48,034 nt of DNA from a virus (taxonomy: Duplodnaviria > Heunggongvirae > Uroviricota > Caudoviricetes), in IMG/VR virus record IMGVR_UViG_3300029079_000001. One strand, 5' to 3'. The position numbers and the translations under genes are program-made. The first letter of the stretch is position 1, and every line of letters starts with the position of its first letter. The notes under the pieces are model-generated. The model had not been told where the DNA came from. It searched no databases and saw nothing but the letters and a program-made list of their open reading frames with translations. Shown here in pieces: positions 9,834 to 35,641 of this stretch.

Positions 9834-9835
9834 AA

Positions 9836-12736: not shown

Positions 12737-12739
12737 GTG

Positions 12740-12900
12740 CGCTTCATTTACTCGGGTTCCTACGCCCGGCTACGGGATTTACCGTAGCAGAGTAAACTTT
12801 ACCGTCAAAACGACGCGCACGTCAATAATTTGCAAAGACATTTTACCCCGTGACCAGTCACGGGGACAGGTGTTTTTATAATTTGCTTGAACGAGTGATC
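12740..12900 (-). ncRNA. Candidate leader/small regulatory RNA region (N15 CA / P4 CI RNA-like control of the antirepressor operon)
   Basis: No ORF; 9-bp-stem hairpin CCCCGTGAC/GTCACGGGG at 12846..12865; lies upstream of the terminator; the 10-mer GTTCCTACGC occurs twice (12589, 12756) with a partially complementary GGTAGGAAT at 12624. Confidence 0.35.
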
Positions 12901-12926
12901 AGAAGTTGATCGTTAATCAAAGGCCA

Positions 12927-13238
12927 TTACTGATTAAGAGATTGGAAATACCTAACTAACTTACCGGCATCATCACATTTTTCTTTATCTTCGTCCTTAA
13001 CATAGCCGCGACAAAAGGCTGAATAAAATTTTGCATTTTCAGAAGCAAAAGCAGCCGTCGAAAGGAGCAGCTCTTTGCATGACTCTTTTGATGCAGCATC
13101 GGGATTATTTTTACATGCAAGCTCCGCTGATGAGTTAATAACAGAAATGCTATCTTCCTGGGCATAAACCGCAGCAGAAAAGGCAAAACATAAAACAAAA
13201 ATAAAACTCTTCACTTTATCTCCTGTAACAGTCATCAC
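12927..13238 (-). CDS. Secreted Cys-rich small protein (signal peptide, ~80-aa mature part)
   Basis: N-terminus KSFIFVLCFAFSAAVYA|QED is a Sec signal; four Cys in the mature part; AT-rich. Confidence 0.55.
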   Translation of the reverse strand: MMTVTGDKVKSFIFVLCFAFSAAVYAQEDSISVINSSAELACKNNPDAASKESCKELLLSTAAFASENAKFYSAFCRGYVKDEDKEKCDDAGKLVRYFQSLNQ

Positions 13239-13241
13239 AAT

Positions 13242-13649
13242 TCAATCAACTTTTTTAGCATCAGCCATACGATTCAACCAGGAATCAACAATCGGTTGCT
13301 CATCTACAGAATGTTTACCAGGTATAACTCGCCAGCTATCTTGCGAAAATCTGCCGTACTTACGCGGGAATAGGCCTTTCTTTATCTCCCGCCATGTAGT
13401 AGGAAAACCATCCACAAAAGTACCAATTAACAGGAGAGGGACAAAAATCAGAGCTACAAACCATCGTGCAAGAAAGTGTTCAACAACAACATTTTCACCG
13501 TTGTAGTAATACGCATACGCATCCAATATGCGAATTTTCCTTACCTTAAAAATAGCCTTATGCTGAGAACGACTTAACTTGATACGAATGTATCCCTTAT
13601 CCAAAGGGGATTCGTATTTGTATGATTGAACAGCCATTTTTAACCCCAC
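13242..13649 (-). CDS. Membrane-anchored hypothetical protein (135 aa)
   Basis: Central TM segment WFVALIFVPLLLIGTFV. Confidence 0.5.
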   Translation of the reverse strand: MGLKMAVQSYKYESPLDKGYIRIKLSRSQHKAIFKVRKIRILDAYAYYYNGENVVVEHFLARWFVALIFVPLLLIGTFVDGFPTTWREIKKGLFPRKYGRFSQDSWRVIPGKHSVDEQPIVDSWLNRMADAKKVD

Positions 13650-13966
13650 TCACCATCAGCAAACAAAGCGTTATACTCTGACAATGGTAGACGGTTGCCC
13701 TCGATGTAGAGATTCAGTTCATACTTCGTCTCCGGGTTTTCCTTGTCGGCTCGTTCCCAACGCTCAGCAGCCTTACGCGCCAATAATTCCACTGCTTTCA
13801 GATAATCCTCCGTACGGAACCAGCCAAAGATAAGGCCACGATCTGTTACAGCCCAGGCGACCTTTTTTTCTTCCTCCTGGATAGCCCTAATGCGTCGTTC
13901 GCACTCATCCCGGCAGAACTGCAGCTGACGGTAATCAAGTTTGTCCAAAAATGCCGTAGTAGACAT
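13640..13966 (-). CDS. Hypothetical soluble protein (108 aa)
   Basis: ORF overlapping its neighbours; charged, Cys-x-x-x-Cys near the N-terminus. Confidence 0.5.
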   Translation of the reverse strand: MSTTAFLDKLDYRQLQFCRDECERRIRAIQEEEKKVAWAVTDRGLIFGWFRTEDYLKAVELLARKAAERWERADKENPETKYELNLYIEGNRLPLSEYNALFADGEWG

Positions 13967-13970
13967 ATTT

Positions 13971-14162
13971 TTACTCCCCGTTCACCGAAAATTCACGATA
14001 GAAACGTTTCCACATACGATAAGTCTGCGCAAATTGTTCACCACGAAACATCGCCTTCCTGGCCTTCATGTTTTCCTTGTGAGACTTTCGGTCTATGAAC
14101 CAAAACCATTGATGGAACACACAAAGCAAGAGACACAAAGATAATATCCAATCATTACCCAT
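13971..14162 (-). CDS. Small membrane protein (63 aa), translationally coupled to the repA stop
   Basis: ATG at 14162 overlaps the repA stop; TM segment WILSLCLLLCVFHQWFWFI; the ORF track gives a longer 13971..14279 frame. Confidence 0.5.
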   Translation of the reverse strand: MGNDWILSLCLLLCVFHQWFWFIDRKSHKENMKARKAMFRGEQFAQTYRMWKRFYREFSVNGE

Positions 14163-17100
14163 AGAAAGCGCCCTGCTCTTCGTAGCTGCATGAGCTATTC
14201 CCCGTAATGTATTCACGTAACCGCCGCAGCTCATTGCTGGAAAGGTGATCCATGAACTCTGTGAGGTACAGGGATGCAAACGTCATAGCTATGCTGGCTG
14301 ATGACCATGATGACATAGTGGCCAACTCCTCACTGGAAAGCGCACTCATCGCCCAGGACTCAGGTACAGCCACTGGCAACACGGCCAAAGCCTCAGAAAT
14401 TACTGAATGAGGGGCGTTTTGAACCTGCTCGTTTGTGGATCGCGTTTTATCATCCATATATATATTGAGATCCAAATCGCGATCCATTTCGATGGCTGTC
14501 TTCTCGGCTTTACGCGTTTTTAGGGTTAGGCCATCTTTCTGACGCTGAACAAGAATATCCAGCATAAATGCCGCTGATTCAGGCTCAACAAAACGCAAGG
14601 TTGGACGCTTATCGCCGTCTCTGCCGCGACGTTTACCTGTTTTAAGGCCAAGAGAGTCGCAAATGTTTTTAAACAACGCTTCCGGCACTTTAGGCTTCCC
14701 TTTTGGCGTCATAAAACCACCAATGTGCAGAACGTTATTCAACAGGTCACGGCGTTCGGCTGTCATGAGGTTATCTCGAGCGAATTTGAGACGCTCCTGA
14801 GTCGCCTCGCCGGTCATAGTCTCAGGGTTGATACCGCAGTCGATAAAGTACTGCCGGAGAGTTGCTGATTTAAGCGCATAGAAACCGCGCGCCCCGACTT
14901 CAACAGTAGGAGTAGCTTTTACCTTGTGATCGATTATTCCAGGGAATTTAGTTTTAAAGACATCATCAGCCTGCTCGCGAGTCATCGCGGTCACTACAAA
15001 ATATTGCCACTGTCCCGCCTGACGGTATGCGTAGGTAAAATTGATGGCTGCTTCTTCCCGGTCGTAACGACGAGCTGTTACCTCATCTAAAAGCATTGTT
15101 TCATAGCGGCGAACTTTGTCTCGAGCACCATCGAAATAGAATTTCAGCGTGCCTTCTTCAACCGGTAGTTTCAGTTCGTTTTCAATATCCCAGCGGACAA
15201 GTTTTGCCTGTTCTTCAAGCGTCAGCGCGCGTTTTTTTAGCAGTTCTTCACGCTCTGATTCTTGTGGAGTTTCTGTATTGAGGTGCAGATCCAGTGTCTG
15301 TTCCCACACAATATCCCGCGCTTCTTTACGCAGATCTTTACCGATATCATTCGCAGCATAATCGGTGGCCAGCGGTGATACCTTATAACCGTCGCTGTGC
15401 ATGATGCAGATCATGTTGCTGGCGTAGTCGTTACGCGCAGTCGCTTCAATTGCGGCTGCTTTAATTTTCATCCTGGTAAAGTCGGTATTGGCCACCCCCA
15501 TTGATATACGGTCGCCATCGAAAACGACATCCGTCAGTTCACCGTTCATACCTGCGGTAGCAAGCAATGCCTGGGCGAATGCTCGTTCTATTTTTTGCGG
15601 GTCAGTTTCTCGTTTTGCACGAGCTTTATCAAAGCCGATAATAAATTCTTTTGCTGTACGGTCGCGGCGTAGCATTTGCACTGCGTCGCTGGGTACAACT
15701 TCACCACAGAACATGCCGAAATGACGGTCAAAATGTTTTTGCTCAATCGACACGCCGGATGAAATAGACGGGCTATAAATCAGGCCGTCGTATTTTTTGA
15801 CCATCTTTTTCGGTTGATTGGTAAATGCTTCAACTTCTGGCTCTGGTTTGTTTTTCTGGTTTACACACAGAAATTTCTTACCAGGAAAATGCATTCTCAG
15901 GGTGGCTGTCACATCTTCTGCAAAGGTGGAGCTGTCGGTGGCCAACATGATTTTTTCGCCATCCGATACAGCTTTCACCACCTCGGTCATGATGCGATCT
16001 TTTTCTGTATAAAAAACCCGGATTGGCTCACCTGTTTCGCGGTTGCGAACATCAACAGGTAATTCAATTACGTGGATCTGCAGCCATGCCGGTAAACCTA
16101 GTTCTTCACGGCGTTTCATAGCCAGTTCAGCCAGGTCAACCAGTAGATCGTTCGCATCAGCATCCACCATGATTGGGTGTTGTTCCGTTCTGGCCAGCGC
16201 GTCAATTAGCGTATTGAATACAGCAACCGGGTTTTCCATAGCCCGACCGGAAAGAACGGCACGTAGCCCTTGCGTGGCCTCGTCAAAGCCAAAATAGTCG
16301 TGCTGGCGCATCAACGGTTGCCAGCAGTTTTTAACAATCGAGTTTATGCAGATGGTCAGTTTACTGGCGTATGGAGCAATTTCCTGATAGCCAGGGTCCT
16401 GATAGTGCAGGATATCGGCTTTTACACCTTTTCCTTCTGTCATCATTTCCCACAGGCCACCAATAAGGGAGACACGGTGAGCAACAGAGATACCACGTTC
16501 TGAGCTATGCATTAACGGTCGTAACAATCCAGTAGATTTGCCGGAACCCATACCAGCACGGACGATGACTATCCCCTGTAGTGATTGCACGTACTTCAGG
16601 ACATCATCGGTCATTACCGAAGTTTCAAAACGCTTATAGGTGATATGTTGAGGGCGTTTATTGGGATCAGTTATGCGTTCGCTGAAAGAGCGCGGAGCCT
16701 GGGCAATACGGCACTTTTTATTCAGGCGACGGGCAATGTGGTCTTTTACCGTAGCACGATAGATATTTTCCAGTCCCATTTCACGCAGAACGATGCAGAA
16801 CATGTTAAATAAATCTGACGGACTGTTAGGAACCGGGCAGGTTAGCATGCCAATATCCACCGCTCTCAGCAGCTCTTTGGCAAAAGTACGACGGTTATCC
16901 CGCTTAATTGTCTTCAGGCGGTTGAGCGTCAGAGATAGCAAATCAGTACCGGTTTTCAGGCGGTTTGCTGTTGCAAATAGTTGACGTGCTGTTTCACGAA
17001 GTCCACGTAGTTTGTGCAGGTCGTTGAAGTCACTGCACTCCATTTGCGGATCGTCTTCAAAAGTTGGATAGACGCAGCGGACATCGTTGAATTTCGATAA

Positions 17101-18150
17101 GATTTCATAGCCAGTCCGCAGGCCGGTATTCCCTTTTCCTTCTGTGGCAGATTTCCGGTCATTATCCAGTGCGCAGGTGATTTTTGCCGCCGGGTACATG
17201 TTTACCAGTTGTTCCACAACATGAACCATGTTGTTAGCGGATACAGCGACAACCACAGCGTCAAAGCGTTTATCTTTTTTCGTGGCAAGCCAGATGGATG
17301 CACCAGTAGCAAAACCTTCTGTAACAGCGATGTTTTGCGCCCCTTTCAGCTCACCGATAACAAAGCAGGCACCGACGAAATCGCCGCTGGTTACTGCGCT
17401 GGTCTGGTATTTCCCACCTTGTTTGTCGATTCGCTGCCAACCCACAATACGACCATCATAACGACCGTCCAGGTGAGCCAGAGGGATAGCCATATATGTG
17501 GTTGGCCCCCGGCTCCATTTCGCACTGTCGTGACTGGTCACGCGACGCACATCACATGAACTAAAAACGTCACGAATACCTTTTTTAATCGCATATGGCC
17601 ATGAGCCGTCTTCAGCCTGAGCATGTTCCCACGCGCTGTGGAATGCCAGCCATCCCAGCAAACGTTCATGGTCCATTTGGTTGTTTTTCAGGTCATTAAT
17701 TCGTTTTTGTTCTTCACGGCGACGACGTGCTTCGGCCTGACGTTCTATTCTTTCCCGTTCTTCTTCCGGTTGTGCGACCACGGTCGCATTATTCCGTTGT
17801 TGCTCACGGCGATATTCAGAAAACAGGAAGGAGAAACCGCTCCATGAGCCAGCATCGCTGCCTTTATGGACGAAGTTAATGAACGGGTAATCAATCCCTT
17901 TGCTGTGTTCCAGCCTGGAGTAAATTTCTACGCGTCCTTTCAGGCTCTTTTCGAGAGCTTCTGGAGATGTTTTATTGTATGAAGAGTAACGCTCAACCCC
18001 CCCGCGAGGGTTGAGTTGGATGTTGTCGGAACAGGCAGACCAGTTGATACCAGCCATCTGTGCCAGCTCGGTTAGTTCATCCCGTGCTGCTTCAATTAGC
18101 GAGAACGGATCGCTGCCAAAGCGATCCGCATAGAAATCGTTTAATGTCAT
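14155..18150 (-). CDS. repA: Replication protein RepA (multidomain primase-helicase, N15 RepA-like)
   Basis: 1331 aa; Walker A GMGSGKST in the helicase part; position and size match N15 repA; sopC-like palindrome #1 lies inside it at 17771..17788. Confidence 0.85.
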   Translation of the reverse strand: MTLNDFYADRFGSDPFSLIEAARDELTELAQMAGINWSACSDNIQLNPRGGVERYSSYNKTSPEALEKSLKGRVEIYSRLEHSKGIDYPFINFVHKGSDAGSWSGFSFLFSEYRREQQRNNATVVAQPEEERERIERQAEARRRREEQKRINDLKNNQMDHERLLGWLAFHSAWEHAQAEDGSWPYAIKKGIRDVFSSCDVRRVTSHDSAKWSRGPTTYMAIPLAHLDGRYDGRIVGWQRIDKQGGKYQTSAVTSGDFVGACFVIGELKGAQNIAVTEGFATGASIWLATKKDKRFDAVVVAVSANNMVHVVEQLVNMYPAAKITCALDNDRKSATEGKGNTGLRTGYEILSKFNDVRCVYPTFEDDPQMECSDFNDLHKLRGLRETARQLFATANRLKTGTDLLSLTLNRLKTIKRDNRRTFAKELLRAVDIGMLTCPVPNSPSDLFNMFCIVLREMGLENIYRATVKDHIARRLNKKCRIAQAPRSFSERITDPNKRPQHITYKRFETSVMTDDVLKYVQSLQGIVIVRAGMGSGKSTGLLRPLMHSSERGISVAHRVSLIGGLWEMMTEGKGVKADILHYQDPGYQEIAPYASKLTICINSIVKNCWQPLMRQHDYFGFDEATQGLRAVLSGRAMENPVAVFNTLIDALARTEQHPIMVDADANDLLVDLAELAMKRREELGLPAWLQIHVIELPVDVRNRETGEPIRVFYTEKDRIMTEVVKAVSDGEKIMLATDSSTFAEDVTATLRMHFPGKKFLCVNQKNKPEPEVEAFTNQPKKMVKKYDGLIYSPSISSGVSIEQKHFDRHFGMFCGEVVPSDAVQMLRRDRTAKEFIIGFDKARAKRETDPQKIERAFAQALLATAGMNGELTDVVFDGDRISMGVANTDFTRMKIKAAAIEATARNDYASNMICIMHSDGYKVSPLATDYAANDIGKDLRKEARDIVWEQTLDLHLNTETPQESEREELLKKRALTLEEQAKLVRWDIENELKLPVEEGTLKFYFDGARDKVRRYETMLLDEVTARRYDREEAAINFTYAYRQAGQWQYFVVTAMTREQADDVFKTKFPGIIDHKVKATPTVEVGARGFYALKSATLRQYFIDCGINPETMTGEATQERLKFARDNLMTAERRDLLNNVLHIGGFMTPKGKPKVPEALFKNICDSLGLKTGKRRGRDGDKRPTLRFVEPESAAFMLDILVQRQKDGLTLKTRKAEKTAIEMDRDLDLNIYMDDKTRSTNEQVQNAPHSVISEALAVLPVAVPESWAMSALSSEELATMSSWSSASIAMTFASLYLTEFMDHLSSNELRRLREYITGNSSCSYEEQGAFYG
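17771..17788. repeat. sopC-like centromere palindrome #1 (inside repA)
   Basis: TGTGCGACCACGGTCGCA. Confidence 0.6.
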
Positions 18151-22777: not shown

Positions 22778-23104
22778 ATGGCGCTGACACCGGCAGAACG
22801 GCAAAGGAGACGCAGGGAACGGTTGAAGAAGGAAGGCACATCAAGACGGGACTGGATTCTGGAGCCTGACGAGTTACGTATGTTGGGAGAAATTTGTGTA
22901 TTGCGTAGACCGGGGCGAGTTCCATATTCAGAGAATGAAGTCATTGGTCTGCTGATCAGGAAAAACTATAAGGAACTGCAGAAGCAGCTATCTACTACTT
23001 GCCCACGATGTGGTCAAAAAATGCCTGTTTCAGAATGCATTTTTGATGGTGAAGACTCATGTCACCTTACAACTACGAGGCTGAAACTTGCGCTCAAAGT
23101 GTGA
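22778..23104 (+). CDS. Hypothetical basic protein with C-terminal CxxC motif
   Basis: Arg-rich N-terminus RQRRRRERLKK; CPRCG motif. Confidence 0.4.
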   Translation: MALTPAERQRRRRERLKKEGTSRRDWILEPDELRMLGEICVLRRPGRVPYSENEVIGLLIRKNYKELQKQLSTTCPRCGQKMPVSECIFDGEDSCHLTTTRLKLALKV

Positions 23105-23235
23105 CTGGTCACGGAATGATAAACGAAGCGAAAAGAGCTTTTCTTATGGTGATGATGGGCTTTTGTAGGTGGTTGAGTGAGGCGTAGGAAGAGAACATAA
23201 ATATCTGACTACAAAGCTATTAACCCAGTTAATCC

Positions 23236-23258
23236 ATTGAAAGTTGGCTATAAAATTT
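23236..23258. promoter_or_regulatory. Candidate CB operator half-site/promoter upstream of the 23309 gene
   Basis: GGCTATAAAATTT is identical to the right half of the 19015 operator. Confidence 0.45.
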
Positions 23259-23308
23259 GAGTTTTAACCTGTAATTTTATACAGTATCAAATAACCTTTT
23301 TTAATTAA

Positions 23309-23527
23309 ATGGTATTAGATTCAATGACTGAAGCATCTGTATCAACTCTTGAAGAACTCGAATCAAACCTAAAAGACATCGACGCCGTTTTGGATCTGGT
23401 TAGCGTTGCTCTGGCTTCTCCCGAAGCTAGCTTGCATCTTGGCGAGATTTCACGGCTTGTTAGTATGTCGCGGGAGATTGCTCAGAATTGCCAACAAGCG
23501 ATTGCTGTTGAGTGTTTACATCATTGA
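23309..23527 (+). CDS. Hypothetical acidic small protein (72 aa), candidate repressor-controlled early/anti-immunity function
   Basis: ORF downstream of the operator-like site. Confidence 0.4.
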   Translation: MVLDSMTEASVSTLEELESNLKDIDAVLDLVSVALASPEASLHLGEISRLVSMSREIAQNCQQAIAVECLHH

Positions 23528-23570
23528 TACACACCCCGCCCTTCTGGACGGGGTAGCGAAAAGTGATTAA

Positions 23571-23858
23571 TCAATAGACGGCATTAATATTAATCGTTGC
23601 GCCACATGCTTGGGCATATTTTGATAAAGTTTTCATGCTTGCTCCTAAAGGATTGCTTTCCAGGCGGCTGATGGCGGACGGGCGCAAGCCCATTCTTTCT
23701 GCCAGAGCTGACTTCGTTAAACCTGCTCTTTCCCTCATTTCGTATAACATTTCGACCATCTCCAGTTCTTTATCGGCCTCTTCATATCCTTTGATAGCTT
23801 CTGGAGTGTTGAGTAGTTTTTCCTTTACTTCGTTAAACGGGATGCCTTTTGCTTTCAT
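23571..23858 (-). CDS. HTH (XRE-family) antitoxin, HigA-like
   Basis: 95 aa; HTH LTKSALAERMGLRPSAISRLES; start overlaps the upstream toxin stop. Confidence 0.65.
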   Translation of the reverse strand: MKAKGIPFNEVKEKLLNTPEAIKGYEEADKELEMVEMLYEMRERAGLTKSALAERMGLRPSAISRLESNPLGASMKTLSKYAQACGATININAVY

Positions 23859-24169
23859 CAGTTCATCTCCTTCAGGCGAGTTCTGGCGATTTCTATAGCC
23901 TTTACTGGTGTTTTCTGTGTCTTTTTTACAAATGCATGCAATAGATAAATTTCGTTACCAGTCGCGTAGGCGTATAGCGTTCTTGCGATATTTTTATCCC
24001 CTACTCTTAGTTCAAAGAGTCCTCCGCCTATTACACGGCTATGGGGCATCTTAAGTTTGTTTCCTTCTTTCTCAAGCCGTTCAATTAGCCTGGTCATGCG
24101 ACCTCGCAGATCGTCTGGTAGTTCAAGCAGTTCATCCAGTGCTGCAGGGTGGGTTATCACGTTAAACAT
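23858..24169 (-). CDS. RelE/ParE-superfamily toxin, Gp49/HigB-2-like
   Basis: 103 aa from ATG 24169 with AGGAGG RBS; toxin-upstream-of-antitoxin (hig-type) order; ...LFELRVGDKNIARTLYAY... core. Confidence 0.55.
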   Translation of the reverse strand: MFNVITHPAALDELLELPDDLRGRMTRLIERLEKEGNKLKMPHSRVIGGGLFELRVGDKNIARTLYAYATGNEIYLLHAFVKKTQKTPVKAIEIARTRLKEMN

Positions 24170-24227
24170 ATTATAGCCTCCTAACGCGCAAAATACACCA
24201 AAACGAGAAAACATTGCAAACATAAAA

Positions 24228-24245
24228 TTTCACTAAAAAGTGAAA
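24228..24245. promoter_or_regulatory. Palindromic operator in the toxin-antitoxin promoter
   Basis: TTTCAC-TAAAAA-GTGAAA inverted repeat 60 bp upstream of the toxin start. Confidence 0.5.
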
Positions 24246-24315
24246 AATAACGCTGGATGTGTTCGTTTGGCAGAGTTACAGTTCGTGTTGTTGAGGGGGA
24301 TAACCCACTAACTGT

Positions 24316-24555
24316 ATGAATTTGGAGGATATTATGAATTATCAAGGTAACGAAAAAATGCGCGACGACGTTGCTGAGATAGCTAACGAACTGTATGAGT
24401 TGTGGCAGAAGGTTGAACGTTTCGAAAAGGAATATGGTTTCAACAGTACCAACCTAGCAGACCGACTGGCTGGTCGCTTAGTTGGGACTATGGGGCCAAA
24501 ACTGGCTGAGTTGAACCGCTTTATGGCTGATGTTGATTTCCAGTTTCAAGATTGA
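24316..24555 (+). CDS. Hypothetical protein (79 aa)
   Basis: ORF with GGAGG RBS. Confidence 0.45.
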   Translation: MNLEDIMNYQGNEKMRDDVAEIANELYELWQKVERFEKEYGFNSTNLADRLAGRLVGTMGPKLAELNRFMADVDFQFQD

Positions 24556-24568
24556 TTAGAGAGGCGTT

Positions 24569-24796
24569 ATGAATATTAATGAAATTCGTGGAAATATGAC
24601 TGAAGCGGCCCTGAGTGTGGAATGTGTTATGCGTGGATACCCACGCATTTCCCTGAAAGAGTTAAGCGAAGCCTGTTTTTTGAGTCAAGTTGCCGTTGAA
24701 TTTATCATCGAACAGATGATCTGTTTTGGGGTTGCAAAGCGTAGTGGATCTGGTCGATATTCTTTGACCGATGAATATAAGCAGGCAACTTTCTAA
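24569..24796 (+). CDS. Hypothetical protein (75 aa)
   Basis: ORF; followed by sopC-like site #3 and terminator hairpins. Confidence 0.45.
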   Translation: MNINEIRGNMTEAALSVECVMRGYPRISLKELSEACFLSQVAVEFIIEQMICFGVAKRSGSGRYSLTDEYKQATF

Positions 24797-24800
24797 AAAC

Positions 24801-24818
24801 TGTGCGACCACGGTCGCA
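24801..24818. repeat. sopC-like centromere palindrome #3
   Basis: GTGCGACCACGGTCGCAC (intergenic). Confidence 0.6.
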
Positions 24819-24904
24819 CAGCACAAAAACGAAAAAGCTTGGCAAAATGACGGTTTTTAGTTATTGTTTTGTTAAGTTGGGTTTTTTGTACCCAACAGCC
24901 AACA

Positions 24905-24935
24905 AGCCGCCTTTATGGCGGTTTTTTTGTGCCTG
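24905..24935 (+). terminator. Intrinsic terminator(s) after the 24316..24796 genes
   Basis: AGCCGCC-TTTA-TGGCGG followed by TTTTTTT; a second hairpin GTTGGGT...ACCCAAC lies upstream. Confidence 0.55.
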
Positions 24936-25063
24936 AAAAGTGGGCGCAGGACAATTTGCAGCTTGTCCTGCGGTCAACCCATGCCAGAGCTATAGGCTGA
25001 ACCTAAAGCCCACCCGCGATGCGCATCGCCGGGTTAGCTTACCCAGGCAAAAAAATAATAGCT

Positions 25064-26140
25064 ATGTTCAAAACCACTAATATTCATGGCGCACAACTCG
25101 TTTGCGCAGATTCTCTGCAATTTATCAAAACCATCCCTGATAACTCGGTCAATTTGATTGCAACAGACCCACCATACTTCGGCGTAAAGGCTAACGCATG
25201 GGATAACCAGTGGGATAGCGATGCTGACTTTTTGGGGTGGATTGACGAATTTTTGGCAGAATTTTGGCGGATATTGGCCCCTAATGGCAGCCTGTATATG
25301 TTTACCGGCTCTCGCCTTGCGTCAAAAATTGAATTATTAACTCGCGACCGTTTCAATGTTCTGAACCATATCATTTGGGCTAAACCCAGTGGTATGTGGC
25401 GCGGTTGTCATAAAGAAAGTTTAAGGGCTTATTTTCCTGCTACTGAAAGAATATTATTTGCAGAGCATTACGGCGCGTCAGGTTATGCTAAAGGTCAGTC
25501 AGGTTATGCTTCAAAATGTGCAGATTTAAGAAAAAATATTTTTTCTCCACTAATTGATGCTTTTTCGCTGGCTCGCCGTCAGTTAGATATATCAGCCGCA
25601 GACATTAATTCAGCGACAGGAAAGCAGATGTGTTCGCACTGGTTTTCTTATTCGCAGTGGCGGCTTCCATCATTAATTGATTTTAATAAACTATGCGAAT
25701 TATTTCGCAGGAAGGCAGATTCACTCGGTGTCCCGTGTCCATATCCTTTTAATGTTGATTATTCAGAACATGAAAAGCGTTATAGCGATCTGAAATTGCA
25801 TTATGAGGAAGTAAAGAAGCAGTATGATGATTTGAAGGCTCAGTATGAAAATTTGCGCCGCCCATTTCATGTTACTGCTGATGTACCTTATACCGATGTA
25901 TGGGAGTTTCCTCCTGTGCAATATTATCCTGGCAAGCACCCATGTGAAAAACCTGCAGCGATGATGGAACATATTATAAAGAGTAGTTCACGCCCCGGAG
26001 ATATCGTTGCCGATTTCTTTATGGGATCAGGCTCAACTATTAAAGCTGCGCTGAAGTTAGGACGTCAGGCAATAGGTATTGAGATTGAGGGCGAACGTTA
26101 TCTTCAGACAGTTGATGAAGTGAAAAAGTTATTTGAGTAA
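25064..26140 (+). CDS. Orphan N6-adenine (beta-class, CcrM-like order) DNA methyltransferase
   Basis: DPPY catalytic motif (IATDPPYFG) N-terminal to the AdoMet motif FFMGSGST; ATG 25064 preferred over the longer 25019 frame. Confidence 0.75.
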   Translation: MFKTTNIHGAQLVCADSLQFIKTIPDNSVNLIATDPPYFGVKANAWDNQWDSDADFLGWIDEFLAEFWRILAPNGSLYMFTGSRLASKIELLTRDRFNVLNHIIWAKPSGMWRGCHKESLRAYFPATERILFAEHYGASGYAKGQSGYASKCADLRKNIFSPLIDAFSLARRQLDISAADINSATGKQMCSHWFSYSQWRLPSLIDFNKLCELFRRKADSLGVPCPYPFNVDYSEHEKRYSDLKLHYEEVKKQYDDLKAQYENLRRPFHVTADVPYTDVWEFPPVQYYPGKHPCEKPAAMMEHIIKSSSRPGDIVADFFMGSGSTIKAALKLGRQAIGIEIEGERYLQTVDEVKKLFE

Positions 26141-26154
26141 CTGGAGAATATATT

Positions 26155-26184
26155 CCCCTGCCGTTTTTGGTAGGGGTTATTTTT
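26155..26184 (+). terminator. Intrinsic terminator between the methylase and the lysis cassette
   Basis: CCCCTGCC-GTTTTT-GGTAGGGG followed by TTATTTTT. Confidence 0.55.
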
Positions 26185-26235
26185 GCCATATAGTTTCCAA
26201 GCCGAAACCTCAGCAACTATTGCGAGGTAAGAGAT

Positions 26236-26508
26236 ATGAAGATGGATGAACGATACAGCAGTGCATCTTATGGTAGCGCTGGTCTTGCTGCGTTCTTTGC
26301 CAGCCTGTCATTGCAGGATTGGGGCTTCATTATCGGTGTCGCGTTCAGCATTATCCTCGGTGTGCTTACATACCGGCTCAATAAACGCGAGCAGATGAAG
26401 CGCACGAAGATATTGCAGGACATATTGGATAAAACTAATACCAATAATCTTTCTGCTACAGCGATGGTTATTGGAGAGCTGGGGAAGAGAGCACCGAAGG
26501 AAATATGA
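26236..26508 (+). CDS. Class II holin (pinholin S21-like), MKM dual-start motif
   Basis: 90 aa; two TM segments ([27 protein letters not shown]); start overlaps into the endolysin gene. Confidence 0.7.
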
Positions 26509-27005
26509 TGCAGTCATCATTACGCAAAGCTGTCACAGTTGCTATTGGTGGCGGGGCTATTGCCATAGCGTCTATGCTCATCACTGGCCCAAGTGGTAAC
26601 GATGGTCTGGAAGGTGTCAGTTACATACCATACAAAGATATTGTTGGCGTATGGACTGTATGTTACGGACACACCGGAAAAGACATCATGCTAGGTAAAA
26701 CGTATACCGAAGCAGAATGCAAAGCTCTCCTGAATAAAGACCTTGCCACTGTCGCCAGACAAATTAATCCGTACATCAAAGTCGATATACCGGAAACAAC
26801 GCGCGGCGCTCTTTACTCGTTCGTTTACAACGTGGGCGCTGGCAATTTCAGAACATCGACGCTTCTTCGCAAAATAAACCAGGGCGATATCAAGGGCGCA
26901 TGTGACCAGCTACGTCGCTGGACATACGCTGGCGGTAAGCAATGGAAAGGGCTGATGACTCGCCGTGAGATTGAGCGTGAAGTCTGTTTGCGGGGGCAAC
27001 AATGA
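26505..27005 (+). CDS. SAR endolysin (phage lysozyme, T4-lysozyme-like fold)
   Basis: 166 aa; Gly/Ala-rich N-terminal signal-anchor [19 protein letters not shown]; lysozyme core ...[11 protein letters not shown]... Confidence 0.8.
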
Positions 27006-27093
27006 GCATGATTTGCTTTTTCATGGCAGCGTTGCTCGCATTCAATGGCAACGATGCGTGGCCGTGGTTTCTGGCCGTTGGAGTGTTGATGTC

Positions 27094-27555
27094 ATGAGTC
27101 GGTTAACCGCGATTATCTCCGCTCTGGTTATCTGCATCATCGTCTGCCTGTCATGGGCTGTTAATCATTACCGTGATAACGCCATCTCCTACAAAGAGCA
27201 GCGCGACAAAAACGCCAGAGAGTTGAAGCTGGCGAACGCCACCATCAAAGACATGCAGATCCGCCAGCGTGATGTAGCGGCTCTGGATGCCAAATACACG
27301 AAGGACTTAGCTGATGCTAAAAAGCAGCTTGATGATTTGCAGCGTTGTGTTCGCACTGGCAAGTGTGGGCTGCACCTCAACGCCAGATGTCCCGCGAACG
27401 GAGCGACCATCACCGGCGGCCTGGGCGATGCTACCGGCCCCCGACTTACTGACTCCGCTGAACGGGATTATTTCATCCTCAGAGAGCGAATCGTCACAGT
27501 GACGAAACAGGTTGGATATTTGCAGGAGTACATCAGGACGCAATGCCTGAATTAA
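27094..27555 (+). CDS. Rz: Spanin inner-membrane subunit Rz
   Basis: 153 aa from ATG 27094; N-terminal [17 protein letters not shown]; coiled-coil body; closely matches recalled lambda Rz. Confidence 0.85.
27314..27502 (+). CDS. Rz1: Spanin outer-membrane lipoprotein Rz1 (embedded in Rz, +1 frame)
   Basis: 62 aa; lipobox LASVGC; Pro-rich. Confidence 0.8.
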
Positions 27556-27596
27556 TTCCTCTGCATCAAAAACTAACTTAATTTGTTGGATAGTGA

Positions 27597-27923
27597 ATGA
27601 AAATTTATATTTCCGGACCAATGACGGGATATGAGAATTTTAATCGTGACGCCTTTAATAAAGAGGCTGAGCGTTTATCACGTCATGCTCACGTAGTCCT
27701 GAACCCGGCGATTTTTCCTAATGGCCTGACACAACGTGCACACATGGAGATTTGCTTTGCAATGCTTCGCTGTGCTGATGCTATTTTGATGCTTCCTGGC
27801 TGGAAAACATCTGCCGGAGCCACTGCGGATTACCATTACGCATACAAGATGGGGATGCCGGTATTCACTACGCTGAATTATCCGCCAGCTTGTTCCTCGT
27901 GTGCGACCGTGGTCGCACGCTAA
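27597..27923 (+). CDS. DUF4406-like protein (nucleoside 2-deoxyribosyltransferase-like fold)
   Basis: MKIYISGPMTG... N-terminal signature; sopC-like site #4 lies in its last codons. Confidence 0.55.
   Translation: MKIYISGPMTGYENFNRDAFNKEAERLSRHAHVVLNPAIFPNGLTQRAHMEICFAMLRCADAILMLPGWKTSAGATADYHYAYKMGMPVFTTLNYPPACSSCATVVAR
27901..27918. repeat. sopC-like centromere palindrome #4
   Basis: GTGCGACCGTGGTCGCAC. Confidence 0.6.
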
Positions 27924-27928
27924 ATTCC

Positions 27929-27996
27929 GCGCTGCATCGTCGCCGTATTCCCGCATTAACTATGACCGTAGCCCGACGGGGAACTCCTCTGCGCGA
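27929..27996. repeat. Left copy of a ~68-bp direct repeat flanking the AT-rich cassette
   Basis: GCGCTGCATCGTCGCCGTATTCCCGCATTAACTATGACCGTAGCCCGACGGGGAACTCCTCTGCGCGAG; second copy at 29713..29780 with 4 mismatches. Confidence 0.8.
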
Positions 27997-28120
27997 GTGT
28001 GCGGAAATAATCAAAAACGATGCACACCGGGTTTTTACCGCGCTATTGATTCGCGGGTTTGTCCCTCATGCTCGCCAGTCCTGTGCGAGGGTGGAAGAAA
28101 CAGGGCATGTATTCAGGAGC

Positions 28121-28138
28121 GTGCGACCGTGGTTGCAC
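28121..28138. repeat. sopC-like centromere palindrome #5 (one mismatch)
   Basis: GTGCGACCGTGGTTGCAC. Confidence 0.5.
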
Positions 28139-28161
28139 GGTATCTTTGTCAGGAGGTTTTG

Positions 28162-29022
28162 ATGAAAGAGTTGCAAAAAATTAATTCAATAATGGAAAGG
28201 TTAAGTGCTCTTGAGCGTAAGCTGGACGATTGTGGAAAGCTGTGTGTTGAAAAGCAAAATGAGCTTTACCGAGAATTTTTTACAATCGTAAGTGAGCTGA
28301 TGCCAATTGTTAATAACTGCCTGATGACATCCAGATTTTTTAATGTCGATGCTACTACATCCAGAAAATTTTCTGTGAAAATTCAAGAAAGAGTTTCTGG
28401 TAGTGTGACAAGAGAGATGGCTGAACAGTTGGTGGCAATGAGCAATAAAACAAAAAGAAAAAAGGCATTGCTTGTAACAGCAAATCAGCTTTCAGGGCGC
28501 GTTGACTTTCAGGTCAGACAGGGTGGGCGTGTACTGGTAAATGATGCGTTCGTTGGACGTAGCTTTAGTCCTTACTCGATGAAATATGATGTTGATGCAG
28601 ATGATCAGGATATCAGCATTTCCTGGAAATCTGAGACAGCAGGGATTGTATTAACAGCAGAGTTGTTGAGTGATGATAAAAATGATGTCCAGCATCATTT
28701 GGACGAAAAGAATCATATTTCTGAAATTTGTATGAAGCCACGCAGCGGAATGACTTTATTGTCACGCACTCTTGCTGCTGGCTTTTCTGCACCGGAAAAA
28801 CGTGTGCTTCTGGTAGTGCCTGAAGATGCAGATATTCGACCACTGAATGGCTGTGATGTTATTAGTGCAAAAACATTGCATACCCGCGTCATTCCTGTAC
28901 CGGATGTGGTCATTATTGATGATGTTGAGAAATGCAAGTCTGTTTCCTCAACTGCCACAATCAAGCGAATTTTACGTTGTAGCACGTCGGCTGTTGTATT
29001 CCGGAAGCAGTTACATAACTAA
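28162..29022 (+). CDS. Hypothetical cytoplasmic protein (287 aa), AT-rich cassette gene 1
   Basis: ATG 28162 with AGGAGG RBS (the track's 27901 start reads through the repeat); N-terminal coiled-coil-like segment; no recognisable family. Confidence 0.6.
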   Translation: MKELQKINSIMERLSALERKLDDCGKLCVEKQNELYREFFTIVSELMPIVNNCLMTSRFFNVDATTSRKFSVKIQERVSGSVTREMAEQLVAMSNKTKRKKALLVTANQLSGRVDFQVRQGGRVLVNDAFVGRSFSPYSMKYDVDADDQDISISWKSETAGIVLTAELLSDDKNDVQHHLDEKNHISEICMKPRSGMTLLSRTLAAGFSAPEKRVLLVVPEDADIRPLNGCDVISAKTLHTRVIPVPDVVIIDDVEKCKSVSSTATIKRILRCSTSAVVFRKQLHN

Positions 29023-29146
29023 CCAGTTTTGTTTTGCAGAACATCCTCAACTAAAAGCTTATAGAAAGAGAACCTGAGATATTTTTTCTGTCTCTCGTAG
29101 TTGTTTATTTTTTTTCGAACAGGCTTACAACTTACAGGATATAAAC

Positions 29147-29596
29147 ATGCAAGAAGAAGCAAATAAAATTCTTGTTGATTTATTGAAGAAGGCCAGCGAT
29201 GGAATTGATTCCGCCATTGCATTCAGTCAGGCACAGATTCCGGATGTTGTTCATCAGTTGCTGGTATGGAATATGGTTGATAGCCTGATTAAAACATTAA
29301 TAGCCATTTCAACAATCCCGCTAGTTATTTGGTTTATGAAGAAACAGTACCAAAAAGTTGAAATTGGTAAGTTCGATAATGAAGGATGGTCATGGGAAAA
29401 ATGGAAGCCTAAATACAAACAGACTATGATTTGGGAAAGTAACGGTGAGATTAGTTTTCTTATCTTACCATTAGCAGCAGTTTTTGTTCTGTGGGTAAGT
29501 TTTATTATTGCTGTAGTAACCAATATGACATGGTTAAAAATCTGGTTGGCACCTAAGTTATATCTAATCGAATACGCAGCATCACTAATTAAATAG
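29147..29596 (+). CDS. Hypothetical membrane protein (149 aa, two TM segments), AT-rich cassette gene 2
   Basis: TM segments LIKTLIAISTIPLVIWF and ISFLILPLAAVFVLWVSFIIAVV. Confidence 0.55.
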   Translation: MQEEANKILVDLLKKASDGIDSAIAFSQAQIPDVVHQLLVWNMVDSLIKTLIAISTIPLVIWFMKKQYQKVEIGKFDNEGWSWEKWKPKYKQTMIWESNGEISFLILPLAAVFVLWVSFIIAVVTNMTWLKIWLAPKLYLIEYAASLIK

Positions 29597-29712
29597 TCCA
29601 TTACAAAAGCCATTCGCTACTGAGTGGCTTTGATAATGGCTTATACCCTACACGGGATAACTTAACTGATATCCCTTTTAACGGATAAATGTATTCAAGC
29701 CTGACACATCAT

Positions 29713-29780
29713 GCGCTGTATCGTCGCTGTATTCCCGCATTAACCATGACCGTAGCCTGACGGGGAACTCCTCTGCGCGA
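29713..29780. repeat. Right copy of the ~68-bp direct repeat
   Basis: GCGCTGTATCGTCGCTGTATTCCCGCATTAACCATGACCGTAGCCTGACGGGGAACTCCTCTGCGCGAG. Confidence 0.8.
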
Positions 29781-29805
29781 GCATGCAGGATGTTGATTCA
29801 TTGCT

Positions 29806-29823
29806 GTGCGACCGTGGTCGCAC
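29806..29823. repeat. sopC-like centromere palindrome #6
   Basis: GTGCGACCGTGGTCGCAC. Confidence 0.6.
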
Positions 29824-29879
29824 GACGCAGGTCTGTCAGACATTGAATTCATTGCGAATAAACCAGAACGCCTGCGGGT

Positions 29880-30094
29880 CCTTTCCGGCGATCCGGCAGG
29901 CTACGGGGCGGAAGGCGCGCGGGTTTTCGCTATTTATGAAAATTTTCCGGTTTAAGGCGTTTCCGTTCTTCTTCGCCGTAACTTAATGTTTTTATTTAAA
30001 ACACCCCCTGAAAAGAAAGGAAACGACAGATGCTGAAAACGGGCTTTTTGGCCTCTGTCGTTTCCTTTCTCTGTTTTTGTCCGTGGAATGAACA
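29880..30094. other. cos: cos region (cosQ/cosN/cosB-like) upstream of Nu1
   Basis: ...ACGGGGCGGAAGGCGCGCGGGTTTTCGCTATTTATGAAAATTTTCCGGTTTAAGGCG... is near-identical to the recalled lambda left end, except that the 12-nt cosN position reads GGGCGGAAGGCG. Confidence 0.7.
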
Positions 30095-30614
30095 ATGGAA
30101 GTCAACAAAAAGCAGCTGGCTGATATTTTCGGTGCGAGTATCCGTACCATTCAGAACTGGCAGGAGCAGGGAATGCCCGTTCTGCGAGGCGGTGGCAAGG
30201 GTAATGAGGTGCTTTATGATTCTGCCGCCGTCATAAAATGGTATGCCGAAAGGGATGCTGAAATTGAGAACGAAAAGCTGCGCCGGGAGGTTGAAGAACT
30301 GCGGCTGGCCAGCGAGGCAGATCTTCACCCCGGAACACTTGAATTTGAGCGCCATCGCCTGACCCGTGCTCAGGCGACGGCGCAGGAACTGAAAAATGCC
30401 AAAGAATCGGCTGAAGTGGTGGAAACCGCATTCTGTACTTTCGTGCTGTCGCGTATAGCAAGGGAAATATCCAGTATTCTCGACGGTATTCCTCTGTCGG
30501 TGCAGCGACGTTTTCCTGAGCTGGATAACCGGCATATTGATTTCCTGAAACGGGATATCATCAAAGCCATGAACAAAGCAGCCGCGCTGGATGAACTGAT
30601 ACCGGGGTTGCTGA

Positions 30615-30640
<26 letters not shown>
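30095..30640 (+). CDS. nu1: Terminase small subunit Nu1
   Basis: 181 aa, MEVNKKQLADIFGASIRTIQNWQEQGMPV..., lambda Nu1-like. Confidence 0.9.
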
Positions 30641-34321
<3,681 letters not shown>

Positions 34322-34341
<20 letters not shown>

Positions 34342-35641
34342 TCTCCCGCATATTGCCAGCATGGCCTTTAATGAGCCGCTGATGCTTGAACCCGCCTATG
34401 CGCGGGTTTTCTTTTGTGCGCTTGCAGGCCAGCTTGGGATCAGCCGCCTGACGGATGCGGTGTCCGGTGACAGCCTGACTGCCCAGGAGGCACTCGCGAC
34501 GCTGGCATTATCCGGTGATGATGACGGACCACGACAGGCCCGCAGTTATCAGGTCATGAACGGCATCGCCGTGCTGCCGGTTTCCGGCACGCTGGTCAGC
34601 CGGACGCGGGCGCTGCAGCCGTATTCGGGGATGACCGGTTACAACGGCATTATCGCCCGTCTGCAACAGGCTGCCAGCGATCCGATGGTGGACGGCATTC
34701 TGCTCGATATGGACACGCCAGGCGGGATGGTGGCGGGGGCATTTGACTGCGCTGACATCATCGCCCGTGTGCGTGACATAAAGCCGGTATGGGCACTGGC
34801 CAACGACATGAACTGCAGTGCAGGTCAGCTGCTTGCCAGTGCCGCTTCCCGGCGTCTGGTCACGCAGACCGCCCGGACAGGCTCCATCGGCGTCATGATG
34901 GCTCACAGTAATTACGGTGCTGCGCTGGAGAAACAGGGCGTGGAAATCACGCTGATTTACAGCGGCAGCCATAAGGTGGATGGCAACCCCTACAGCCATC
35001 TTCCGGATGACGTCCGGGAGACACTGCAGTCCCGGATGGACGCAACCCGTCAGATGTTTGCGCAGAAGGTGTCGGCATATACCGGCCTGTCCGTGCAGGC
35101 TGTGCTGGATACCGAGGCTGCAGTGTACAGCGGTCAGGAGGCCATTGATGCCGGACTGGCTGATGAACTTGTTAACAGCACCGATGCGATCACCGTCATG
35201 CGTGATGCACTGGATGCACGTAAATCCCGTCTCTCAGGAGGGCGAATGACCAAAGAGACTCAATCAACAACTGTTTCAGCCACTGCTTCGCAGGCTGACG
35301 TTACTGACGTGGTGCCAGCGACGGAGGGCAAAAACGCCAGCGCGGCGCAGCCGGATGTGAACGCGCAGATCACCGCAGCGGTTGCGGCAGAAAACAGTCG
35401 CATTATGGGGATCCTCAGCTGTGAGGAGGCTCACGGACGCGAAGAACAGGCCCGCGTGCTGGCAGAAACCCCCGGTATGACCGTGGAAACGGCCCGCCGT
35501 ATTCTGGCCGCAGCACCACAGAGTGCACAGGCGCGCAGTGACACTGCGCTGGATCGTCTGATGCAGGGGGCACCGGCACCGCTGGCTGCAGGTAACCCGG
35601 CATCTGATGCCGTTAACGATTTGCTGAACACACCAGTGTAA
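34322..35641 (+). CDS. C: Head maturation protease/scaffold C
   Basis: GTG start at 34322 overlapping the end of B as in lambda; VTAELRNLPHIASMAF...; the track's longer 34208 frame is an upstream extension. Confidence 0.8.
35035..35641 (+). CDS. nu3: Scaffold protein Nu3 (in-frame internal start within C)
   Basis: Internal ATG (MDATRQMF...) at the lambda Nu3-equivalent position. Confidence 0.55.

What the first reader, a model, noticed from the sequence alone, without database searches (positions are those of the whole stretch)
29900..29925. cosN-position 12-mer differs from the canonical lambda cohesive end despite near-identical flanks
The surrounding sequence matches the recalled lambda left end almost base for base, but the 12 nt at the cohesive-end position read GGGCGGAAGGCG rather than GGGCGGCGACCT. 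If real, this changes the cohesive-end sequence; alternatively it could be an assembly artefact at a virion DNA end.
Basis: partly seen in the sequence, partly recalled or inferred. Interest (0 to 1): 0.4.

Follow-up and report, generated by a model that had tools for sequence, protein, structure and literature searches.

The report
Natural variant of lambda's sticky end
The odd 12 bases are real: they are a recurrent natural version of the lambda-type cohesive end, changed only in the half that lambda's cutting enzyme is known to tolerate, so the finding is genuine but ordinary.

Summary
Observation confirmed. Window 29906-29917 reads GGGCGGAAGGCG exactly where lambda has GGGCGGCGACCT. Positions 7, 8, 9, 10 and 12 differ. 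cosQ, the CG pairs at both nick sites, cosB (R3, R2, R1) and the Nu1 DNA-binding domain are identical to lambda.

It is not an assembly artefact. The same site occurs in 2 phage records, 80 complete E. coli genomes (inside closed chromosomes and on ~46-kb plasmid records) and 78 IMG/VR contigs.

No gpA or Nu1 residue tracks the allele, and one variant locus encodes a gpA identical to lambda's. Identical flanks carry either allele: L009 and L189 are 99.7% identical over 7 kb, with 5 of 19 mismatches inside these 6 bp.

Feiss et al. 2015 report that differences at bp 7-12 of cosN are common among lambda-like phages (N15, Gifsy-1) and that lambda terminase nicks such variants normally. So this is another right-half cosN allele, unusually divergent. 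By inference it gives 5'-GGGCGGAAGGCG ends that are as stable as lambda's but would not anneal with them.

The genome itself is not lambda. It is an N15-like linear phage-plasmid (protelomerase, telRL, SopAB, RepA) carrying lambda's packaging and structural module. Low interest.

The parts
29876..29882 (+). cosQ (GGGTCCT), the packaging-termination signal, 23 bp upstream of the cohesive-end sequence as in lambda
   Evidence: Exact match located. Aligned to lambda. The same cosQ-N23-cosN spacing anchored the censuses.
29904..29919 (.). cosN: the 12-bp cohesive-end sequence (29906-29917, GGGCGGAAGGCG) plus the conserved CG dinucleotide outside each inferred nick site. The top-strand nick would fall at 29905/29906 and the bottom-strand nick at 29917/29918.
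   Evidence: Nick positions are inferred from identical spacing to R3 and cosQ and from published lambda biochemistry (PMC4669245, PMC9026076). They were not measured.
29912..29917 (.). Variable right half of cosN (bp 7-12): AAGGCG here, CGACCT in lambda
   Evidence: It behaves as a discrete allele on otherwise identical flanks.
29955..29970 (+). cosB R3 (lambda bp 50-65), the critical TerS/Nu1 binding site; identical to lambda
   Evidence: R3 coordinates are from PMC9026076.
29971..30013 (.). R3-R2 spacer that in lambda holds the IHF site I1. It has 4 substitutions relative to lambda. The position of I1 was assigned by homology only.
   Evidence: Alignment. The order R3-I1-R2-R1 is from PMC4669245.
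30014..30029 (-). cosB R2 (inverted relative to R3 and R1); its 16-mer is identical to lambda
30055..30070 (+). cosB R1; its 16-mer is identical to lambda
30095..30640 (+). Nu1 (terminase small subunit, 181 aa). It has 12 substitutions relative to lambda, all at residues 71-148. The N-terminal DNA-binding domain is identical to lambda's.
   Evidence: Pfam PF07471, E 1e-95; comparison with lambda.
30615..32540 (+). gpA (terminase large subunit, 641 aa, ATPase plus endonuclease domains). It has 7 substitutions relative to lambda (98.9% identity).
   Evidence: Pfam PF05876 and PF20454; comparison with lambda; no residue tracks the cosN allele.

Best explanation
The 12-mer is a genuine, functional natural allele of the lambda-type nicking site cosN.

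Proposed mechanism:
- This positions gpA to nick the top strand at 29905/29906 and the bottom strand at 29917/29918.
- Virion DNA then carries 12-nt 5' overhangs, 5'-GGGCGGAAGGCG on the left end and 5'-CGCCTTCCGCCC on the right end.
- After injection these anneal to each other and are ligated.
- In this N15-like genome the resulting circle would then be opened at telRL by the protelomerase.

The changes are confined to bp 7-12. In that half of cosN, nicking is driven by Nu1/R3 anchoring rather than by base recognition, so no change in terminase is needed.

The allele moves between otherwise identical phages as a short cassette, by one of two routes that I could not separate. One is short-patch conversion within the invariant flanks. 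The other is packaging from a cos of one type to a cos of the other, followed by resolution of the 12-bp heteroduplex.

Shown: the sequence, its recurrence, the intact cos architecture, the absence of co-varying terminase residues, and shared flanks. Inferred: the nick positions, the overhang sequence, functionality, and the exchange mechanism.
For: (1) Recurrence. The exact 36-mer is in YDC107_1 and PhiR46_1. It gives 85 places in 80 complete E. coli genomes, 70 chromosomal and 15 on plasmid records. It is in 78 IMG/VR contigs. It lies inside an integrated lambdoid prophage of a closed chromosome.

(2) The same 6-mer is kept on at least 16 cos-like upstream 23-mers, after setting aside the three high-GC chance matches. 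It is also found on at least three different cosB types and with 36 distinct gpA sequences. That pattern indicates maintenance, not decay.

(3) cosQ, the CG pairs at the nick sites, R3, R2, R1 and the Nu1 DNA-binding domain are identical to lambda, and gpA is 98.9% identical.

(4) No gpA or Nu1 residue segregates with the allele. The largest frequency difference is 0.30, at I459V. One variant locus encodes a gpA 100% identical to lambda's. Both alleles occur on lambda-type gpA and on gpA about 65% identical to it.

(5) Published genetics and biochemistry (PMC4669245):
- Differences at bp 7-12 are common among lambda-like phages (N15 at 9 and 12; Gifsy-1 at 8, 9 and 11).
- Mutations in bp 7-12 have minimal effect on cos cleavage.
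- Lambda TerL works equally well on cosN-lambda and cosN-N15.
I confirmed the N15 12-mer GGGCGGCGTCCG. I also recovered the Gifsy-type and mEp213-type alleles in the census.

(6) Predicted duplex stability of the variant ends is -18.6 kcal/mol, against -19.0 for lambda. GC content is unchanged at 10 of 12.

(7) Cassette behaviour. L009 (canonical) has 0 differences from L001 and L189 (variant) over -150..+412. L009 and L189 are 99.7% identical over 7,053 bp with 19 mismatches, 5 of them in these 6 bp.
Against: - No virion ends were sequenced for any phage carrying this allele. No phage record or IMG/VR contig starts at the 12-mer.
- No read data are available for the window.
- Five changes in six positions is more than any right-half variant whose cleavage I could find tested in the literature I could read.
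- The run GCGCGCG at the right nick offers alternative CG steps, so a shifted bottom-strand nick is not formally excluded.
- The viability of PhiR46_1 is inferred only from its record metadata (host ECOR13).
- The main survey of cosN variation (Vahanian et al. 2017, Virology 509:140) could not be read.
Confidence: 0.85

Rival explanations
1. Assembly or sequencing artefact created where virion DNA ends meet, for example a mis-joined or badly polished cohesive end.
For: The window is a circularly permuted, assembled-as-circle genome: the J ORF runs across the window ends. The cos junction was therefore closed by the assembler. No reads are available.
Against: The identical 36-mer occurs in 28 or more listed E. 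coli complete-genome records at 100%. These include integrated chromosomal prophages, where there is no DNA end. It also occurs in 78 IMG/VR contigs on many different flanks. An artefact would not reproduce the same 6-mer across independent projects and platforms.
Confidence: 0.02
2. A new cosN specificity: the changed right half is recognised by a co-evolved terminase nuclease, so lambda terminase would not cut it and this terminase would not cut lambda cosN.
For: There are five changes in the nicking site. gpA of the window has 7 substitutions relative to lambda, 4 of them in the nuclease/C-terminal part: V377L, I459V, T532M and G621S.
Against: None of these substitutions, nor any other gpA or Nu1 position, segregates with the allele in 40 variant versus 45 canonical gpA sequences or in 45 versus 54 Nu1 sequences. 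One variant locus has a gpA identical to lambda's. Near-identical phages differ only in the allele. Published work shows that right-half changes do not affect cleavage (PMC4669245).
Confidence: 0.05
3. An inactivated cos in decaying prophages or plasmids, so that the element is no longer packaged.
For: Most carriers are prophages in bacterial genomes. Some carrier loci have truncated gpA ORFs.
Against: Decay would give scattered variants rather than one 6-mer shared by about 80 loci with intact cosQ and cosB and full-length gpA in 40 of 45 variant loci long enough to judge. The window encodes a complete, uninterrupted genome. Two carriers are deposited as phage genomes, one with a propagation host different from its name strain.
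Confidence: 0.03
4. The allele is maintained by selection as 'private' cohesive ends. These would stop the genome's ends from annealing with those of the very common lambda-type prophages, or with cos-bearing satellites, in the same cell. That would act as a recombination and packaging isolating barrier, and would be especially useful to a phage-plasmid.
For: The predicted lambda x variant heteroduplex pairs only the 6 left-half bases (-9.5 kcal/mol, against about -19 for matched ends). A 2-bp mismatch already costs about 4-fold in yield (PMC4669245). E. coli genomes carry up to 8 canonical cos sites each. The allele is enriched on plasmid records: 15 of 85 places against 19 of 7,849 for the canonical allele (odds ratio 88). 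It is also enriched in window-like upstream contexts, 11 of 47 against 2 of 77. The polymorphism is discrete and present within near-clonal lineages.
Against: The enrichment is not corrected for shared ancestry. Most variant loci (36 of 47) are in ordinary lambdoid contexts. Many other right-half alleles exist, as expected from simple lack of constraint. No fitness data exist.
Confidence: 0.15

Closest known systems
Bacteriophage lambda cos (cosQ-cosN-cosB; NC_001416 joined ends)
   Same: Same cosQ, the same 23-bp cosQ-cosN spacing, the same left half GGGCGG and the same CG at both nick sites. R3, R2 and R1 are identical. Nu1 starts about 190 bp from bp 1. The Nu1 DNA-binding domain is identical and gpA is 98.9% identical.
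   Different: bp 7, 8, 9, 10 and 12 of the cohesive-end sequence differ: AAGGCG instead of CGACCT. Rotationally symmetric pairs within the 12-mer change from (2,11), (3,10), (6,7) to (2,11), (4,9). The predicted ends would not anneal with lambda ends.
Phage N15 cosN (GGGCGGCGTCCG) and the N15/lambda cohesive-end mismatch system (Feiss et al. 2015, PMC4669245)
   Same: It is also a natural right-half variant with G at bp 12 and an unchanged left half. The genome type is the same: a linear phage-plasmid with protelomerase, telRL, SopAB and RepA. Experiments show that lambda TerL uses such a variant as well as its own site.
   Different: The window differs from N15 at bp 7-10. It has lambda's complex cosB (R3-I1-R2-R1) and lambda Nu1/gpA, not N15's single-R3 cosB and its TerL, which is 64.9% identical to lambda's (PMC4669245).
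Other documented right-half alleles: Gifsy-1 (differs at bp 8, 9, 11) and mEp213/LLS (GGGCGGCGCGCT; PMC12315714)
   Same: They show the same pattern: left half and nick-flanking CG conserved, bp 7-12 free to vary. Both alleles were recovered in my IMG/VR census, as CAGCGT in 32 loci and CGCGCT in 2 loci.
   Different: The 6-mer is different. This allele has more changes from lambda (5) than those described in the papers I could read. Unlike them, it sits mostly on a cosB/terminase module that is essentially lambda's own.

Membership tests
Lambda-like cos site (12-nt 5'-overhang cohesive-end site: cosQ-cosN-cosB) | 7-bp cosQ (GGGTCCT) at the lambda distance upstream of cosN | tested here: met
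   29876-29882, 23 bp before bp 1
Lambda-like cos site (12-nt 5'-overhang cohesive-end site: cosQ-cosN-cosB) | [quoted passage not shown] | tested here: met
   TACG|GGGCGGAAGGCG|CGCG. In the unbiased N12 census, 1 of 120 sites had a left-half change.
Lambda-like cos site (12-nt 5'-overhang cohesive-end site: cosQ-cosN-cosB) | Complex cosB with R3, R2 (inverted) and R1 at lambda spacing from cosN | tested here: met
   R3 at 29955-29970, R2 at 30014-30029 and R1 at 30055-30070, all identical to lambda. bp 13-70 are identical.
Lambda-like cos site (12-nt 5'-overhang cohesive-end site: cosQ-cosN-cosB) | Adjacent Nu1-type small and gpA-type large terminase genes | tested here: met
   PF07471 E 1e-95; PF05876 and PF20454
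Lambda-like cos site (12-nt 5'-overhang cohesive-end site: cosQ-cosN-cosB) | Virion DNA physically ends in 12-nt 5' overhangs produced at this site | not testable with these tools
   No reads or end sequencing are available. No record or contig starts at the 12-mer.
Phages with cohesive ends identical to lambda (lambda, and the 115 of 120 canonical sites in the census) | 12-mer GGGCGGCGACCT | tested here: not met
   5 of 12 bases differ
Documented class of natural right-half (bp 7-12) cosN variants (Feiss et al. 2015; Vahanian et al. 2017) | All differences from lambda confined to bp 7-12, with the terminase-recognition elements otherwise intact | tested here: met
   Differences at bp 7, 8, 9, 10 and 12 only. 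The class is described in PMC4669245.
Documented class of natural right-half (bp 7-12) cosN variants (Feiss et al. 2015; Vahanian et al. 2017) | This particular 12-mer is listed in the published surveys | tested here: inconclusive
   The literal string and its reverse complement are absent from the searchable literature in any phage context. Vahanian et al. 2017 is not held, and sequences printed in figures are not searchable.
N15-like (Ravinvirus-type) linear phage-plasmids | Protelomerase gene with an adjacent telRL palindrome, plasmid partition genes and a RepA-type primase | tested here: met
   TelK/ResT domains at 10048-11949. A 42-bp perfect palindrome at 9836-9877 contains the N15 telO core. 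SopB-HTH and ParA-type genes lie at 7269-9400. A 1,331-aa Toprim/origin-binding protein lies at 14155-18150. The nearest record, YDC107_1, is filed under Ravinvirus.
N15-like (Ravinvirus-type) linear phage-plasmids | N15-type simple cosB (a single R3, gene 1 starting at bp 89) and N15 packaging specificity | tested here: not met
   The window has lambda's cosB and lambda's Nu1 DNA-binding domain.

The most novel reading that the evidence does not exclude
AAGGCG and CGACCT are two discrete, mutually non-annealing 'mating types' of the lambda cohesive end. They would be kept as a polymorphism within the same phage lineages because private ends protect a genome from forming dead-end hybrids with the near-ubiquitous lambda-type prophages and cos-bearing satellites in E. 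coli. This would matter most for N15-like phage-plasmids. Alleles would switch by heterologous cos-to-cos packaging followed by resolution of the 12-bp heteroduplex.
Probability: 0.12. Interest if true: 0.5.

Novelty: new member of a known kind. Interest (0 to 1): 0.2.

Why it matters
The practical consequences are modest.
- Annotation and end-prediction tools, and people, should not assume that a lambda-like packaging module has GGGCGGCGACCT ends. About 1% of lambda-type cos sites in complete E. coli genomes carry this alternative, and close to half of those on plasmid records do.
- Cosmid, in vitro packaging or end-ligation work with such phages would meet ends that are incompatible with lambda's.
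- The allele is a natural five-base test of the published claim that bp 7-12 of cosN are unconstrained.
- The finding of near-identical phages that differ only here gives a clean starting pair for asking whether cohesive-end identity has any fitness consequence.

Tried and rejected
- Literal searches of the literature for GGGCGGAAGGCG and its reverse complement gave only unrelated plant and Streptomyces papers.
- Vahanian et al. 2017 could not be retrieved.
- I found no paper describing the PhiR phage series. The YDC107 hits concern plasmids and a tail cryoEM structure, not cos.
- I looked for direct end evidence, meaning phage records or IMG/VR contigs that begin at the 12-mer. There were none.
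- The one-genome-per-species scan gave one real hit (Escherichia sp. E1V33). The other three hits were chance matches in high-GC genomes with no cos-like flanks. I therefore learned little about host range beyond Escherichia.
- I considered a local inversion as the origin. The reverse complement of CGACCT is AGGTCG, not AAGGCG, so this was rejected.
- AAGGCG also occurs at lambda bp 49-54, at the edge of R3, which could hint at templated mutation. A 6-mer coincidence within about 200 bp is too likely by chance, so I left this as a note.
- I looked for a chain of single-base intermediates from the lambda allele to this one among the sampled alleles. No complete path was found. The only one-step neighbour seen is CAGGCG, in one locus.
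- I tested for co-varying terminase residues and found none.

Full report
**1. The observation**

Window 29906-29917 reads GGGCGGAAGGCG. Lambda's own sequence (NC_001416) begins GGGCGGCGACCT. An alignment of the window to lambda's joined right and left ends puts the two 12-mers in exact register.

BLAST hits to lambda records start at lambda base 13, immediately after the 12-mer. The differences are at bp 7, 8, 9, 10 and 12. The left half GGGCGG and C11 are kept.

The flanks are almost unchanged. From cosQ to the nick, 4 of 35 bases differ. From bp 13 to the Nu1 start, 7 of 178 differ, and bp 13-70 are identical. Against that ~5% background, five or more changes in six positions has P about 2e-6. 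The canonical 12-mer occurs nowhere in the window.

**2. It is not an artefact**

The 36-mer spanning the site was found in three collections:
- two deposited phage genomes, YDC107_1 and PhiR46_1, at 100% identity;
- 80 of 5,426 complete E. coli genomes, as 85 places, of which 70 are chromosomal and 15 are on plasmid records of about 46 kb;
- 78 IMG/VR contigs.

In strain CFSAN018748 the site lies inside a classical integrated lambdoid prophage in a closed chromosome. That prophage has intD next to a tRNA-Arg gene, exo/bet/gam, O/P-type replication genes, Q, lysis genes, Nu1 and A. No DNA end exists there.

The allele is found on at least 16 different cos-like cosQ-cosN spacers and on at least three cosB types. 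One 6-mer reproduced across so many independent assemblies and backgrounds cannot be an end-joining error.

**3. What surrounds it**

Every other element of a lambda cos is present and located:
- cosQ GGGTCCT at 29876-29882;
- the CG dinucleotide outside each nick site;
- R3 at 29955-29970, R2 (inverted) at 30014-30029 and R1 at 30055-30070, each identical to lambda.

Nu1 (30095-30640) has 12 substitutions, all outside the N-terminal DNA-binding domain. gpA (30615-32540) has 7 substitutions in 641 residues. The packaging specificity should therefore be lambda's.

The genome as a whole is not lambda. The ends of the window join to give an uninterrupted 1,174-codon J-type open reading frame, so the window is a complete, circularly permuted 48,034-bp genome. 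Its early region encodes:
- a protelomerase (10048-11949);
- a 42-bp perfect palindrome containing the N15 telO core (9836-9877);
- SopA/SopB-type partition genes (7269-9400);
- a 1,331-residue RepA-type primase (14155-18150).

The nearest record, YDC107_1, is filed under Ravinvirus and annotated with a protelomerase. The window is therefore an N15-like linear phage-plasmid that carries lambda's packaging, head and tail module.

**4. Does the terminase co-vary with the allele?**

I extracted gpA from 40 variant and 45 canonical loci and Nu1 from 45 and 54 loci. No position segregates with the allele. The largest frequency difference in gpA is 0.30, at the conservative I459V polymorphism.

One variant locus encodes a gpA 100% identical to lambda's. 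Both alleles occur with lambda-type gpA and with a gpA type about 65% identical to it. The same nuclease evidently serves both alleles.

**5. What the literature says**

Feiss et al. [quoted passage not shown] Their examples are N15 and phiD326 (bp 9 and 12) and Gifsy-1 (bp 8, 9 and 11). The same paper reports that:
- earlier mutational and biochemical work found right-half changes to have minimal effect on cos cleavage, because TerS bound at R3 positions TerL for the bottom-strand nick;
- lambda TerL gives equal bursts with cosN-lambda and cosN-N15;
- a 2-bp cohesive-end mismatch is tolerated, with about a fourfold loss of yield.

PMC12315714 cites a further allele, GGGCGGCGCGCT, for mEp213/LLS. 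A dedicated survey exists (Vahanian et al. 2017, Virology 509:140; cited), but I could not read it.

My own checks agree with these statements. N15 begins GGGCGGCGTCCG. A cosQ-anchored census of IMG/VR returned more than twenty right-half alleles, including the N15, Gifsy-type and mEp213-type ones.

The window's allele therefore fits an established pattern. Its particular 12-mer does not appear in the searchable literature.

**6. Most likely mechanism**

Terminase assembles on the unchanged cosB. It nicks at 29905/29906 (top strand) and 29917/29918 (bottom strand) and separates the strands. This leaves 5'-GGGCGGAAGGCG and 5'-CGCCTTCCGCCC overhangs.

These have the same GC content as lambda's (10 of 12) and nearly the same predicted duplex stability (-18.6 against -19.0 kcal/mol), so cyclisation should be normal. 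In this genome the circle would then be resolved at telRL into the linear plasmid form.

The nick positions, the overhang sequence and functionality are inferences from conserved spacing, conserved proteins, recurrence and published lambda biochemistry. No end has been sequenced.

**7. Extra observations**

(a) The allele behaves as a cassette. Identical 23-bp upstream and 60-bp downstream flanks carry either allele.

One canonical contig (L009) has no differences from variant loci L001 (PhiR46_1) and L189 across -150..+412. L009 and L189 come from the same metagenome. They are 99.7% identical over 7,053 bp with 19 mismatches, five of them in these six bases.

Two routes could produce this. 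Because the flanks are nearly invariant among lambda-like phages, a conversion tract of under about 100 bp would leave no other trace. Alternatively, packaging from a cos of one type to a cos of the other gives a chromosome with a heteroduplex limited to the 12 bp. Replication or nick translation would then resolve it, as Feiss et al. showed for the N15/lambda pair. I cannot distinguish these.

(b) A lambda x variant heteroduplex is predicted to pair only through the six left-half bases (-9.5 kcal/mol). The two end types should therefore be effectively incompatible.

(c) The allele is rare overall. There are 85 places for it in complete E. coli genomes, against 7,849 for the canonical 36-mer.

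It is nevertheless common on plasmid records, with 15 places against 19 for the canonical allele (odds ratio 88, not corrected for ancestry). Among IMG/VR loci, 11 of 47 variant sites have window-like upstream DNA, against 2 of 77 canonical sites. Most carriers are still ordinary lambdoid prophages.

These points allow, but do not establish, a selective "private ends" reading.

**8. Verdict**

The sequence feature is real and almost certainly functional. It belongs to the documented class of right-half cosN variants and needs no new mechanism.

It is a further, unusually divergent member of a known kind. Interest is low: a specialist would not be surprised. The discrete allele switch within near-identical phages and the enrichment on phage-plasmids are small points that may be worth a follow-up.

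Noticed in passing
window 7269-18150 (telRL 9836-9877; protelomerase 10048-11949; SopB/SopA-type 7269-9400; RepA-type 14155-18150): The genome is an N15-like linear phage-plasmid, not a lambda. It has a protelomerase, a 42-bp perfect palindrome containing the N15 telO core, partition genes and a giant primase. These are combined with a packaging/head/tail module about 96-99% identical to lambda. telRL is intact, cos is joined, and the J ORF spans the window ends, so the record is the circular map.
   Followed up: partly
L395 (NZ_CP028192.1) locus 22847-35347: In the chromosomal lambdoid prophage that carries the same cosN allele, the portal gene is split by an insert of about 10.8 kb. The insert encodes an integrase, BRO-N, Icd-like protein, primase, SSB, major capsid protein, head decoration protein and a small terminase subunit. 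It looks like a capsid-forming satellite (cf-PICI-like) integrated into the helper's portal gene.
   Followed up: no
L150 and L158 (both from IMGVR_UViG_3300045988_113976, 56,122 bp): One 56-kb contig holds two copies of the variant cos region as a 100%-identical inverted duplication of at least 9.1 kb. This is what read-through of a hairpin telomere of a linear plasmid prophage would produce in an assembly.
   Followed up: partly
window 29954-29959 versus 29912-29917: The variant right half AAGGCG is identical to the 6-mer at lambda bp 49-54 (TTTAAGGCGTTT), at the left edge of R3 in the same cos. This may be chance. It could also hint at a templated origin or at a second weak Nu1 contact.
   Followed up: no
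E. coli complete genomes: The canonical lambda cos junction occurs at 7,849 places in 4,230 of 5,426 complete E. coli genomes, with up to 8 per genome. About 49 lambda-type cos/terminase regions sit on plasmid records of roughly 46-62 kb. N15-like phage-plasmids with lambda late genes are therefore a recurrent component of E. coli plasmid lists.
   Followed up: partly
window 25019-26140: A DNA methyltransferase gene (N6/N4 type, PF01555) lies in the late region upstream of the lysis genes. It is also annotated in YDC107_1.
   Followed up: no
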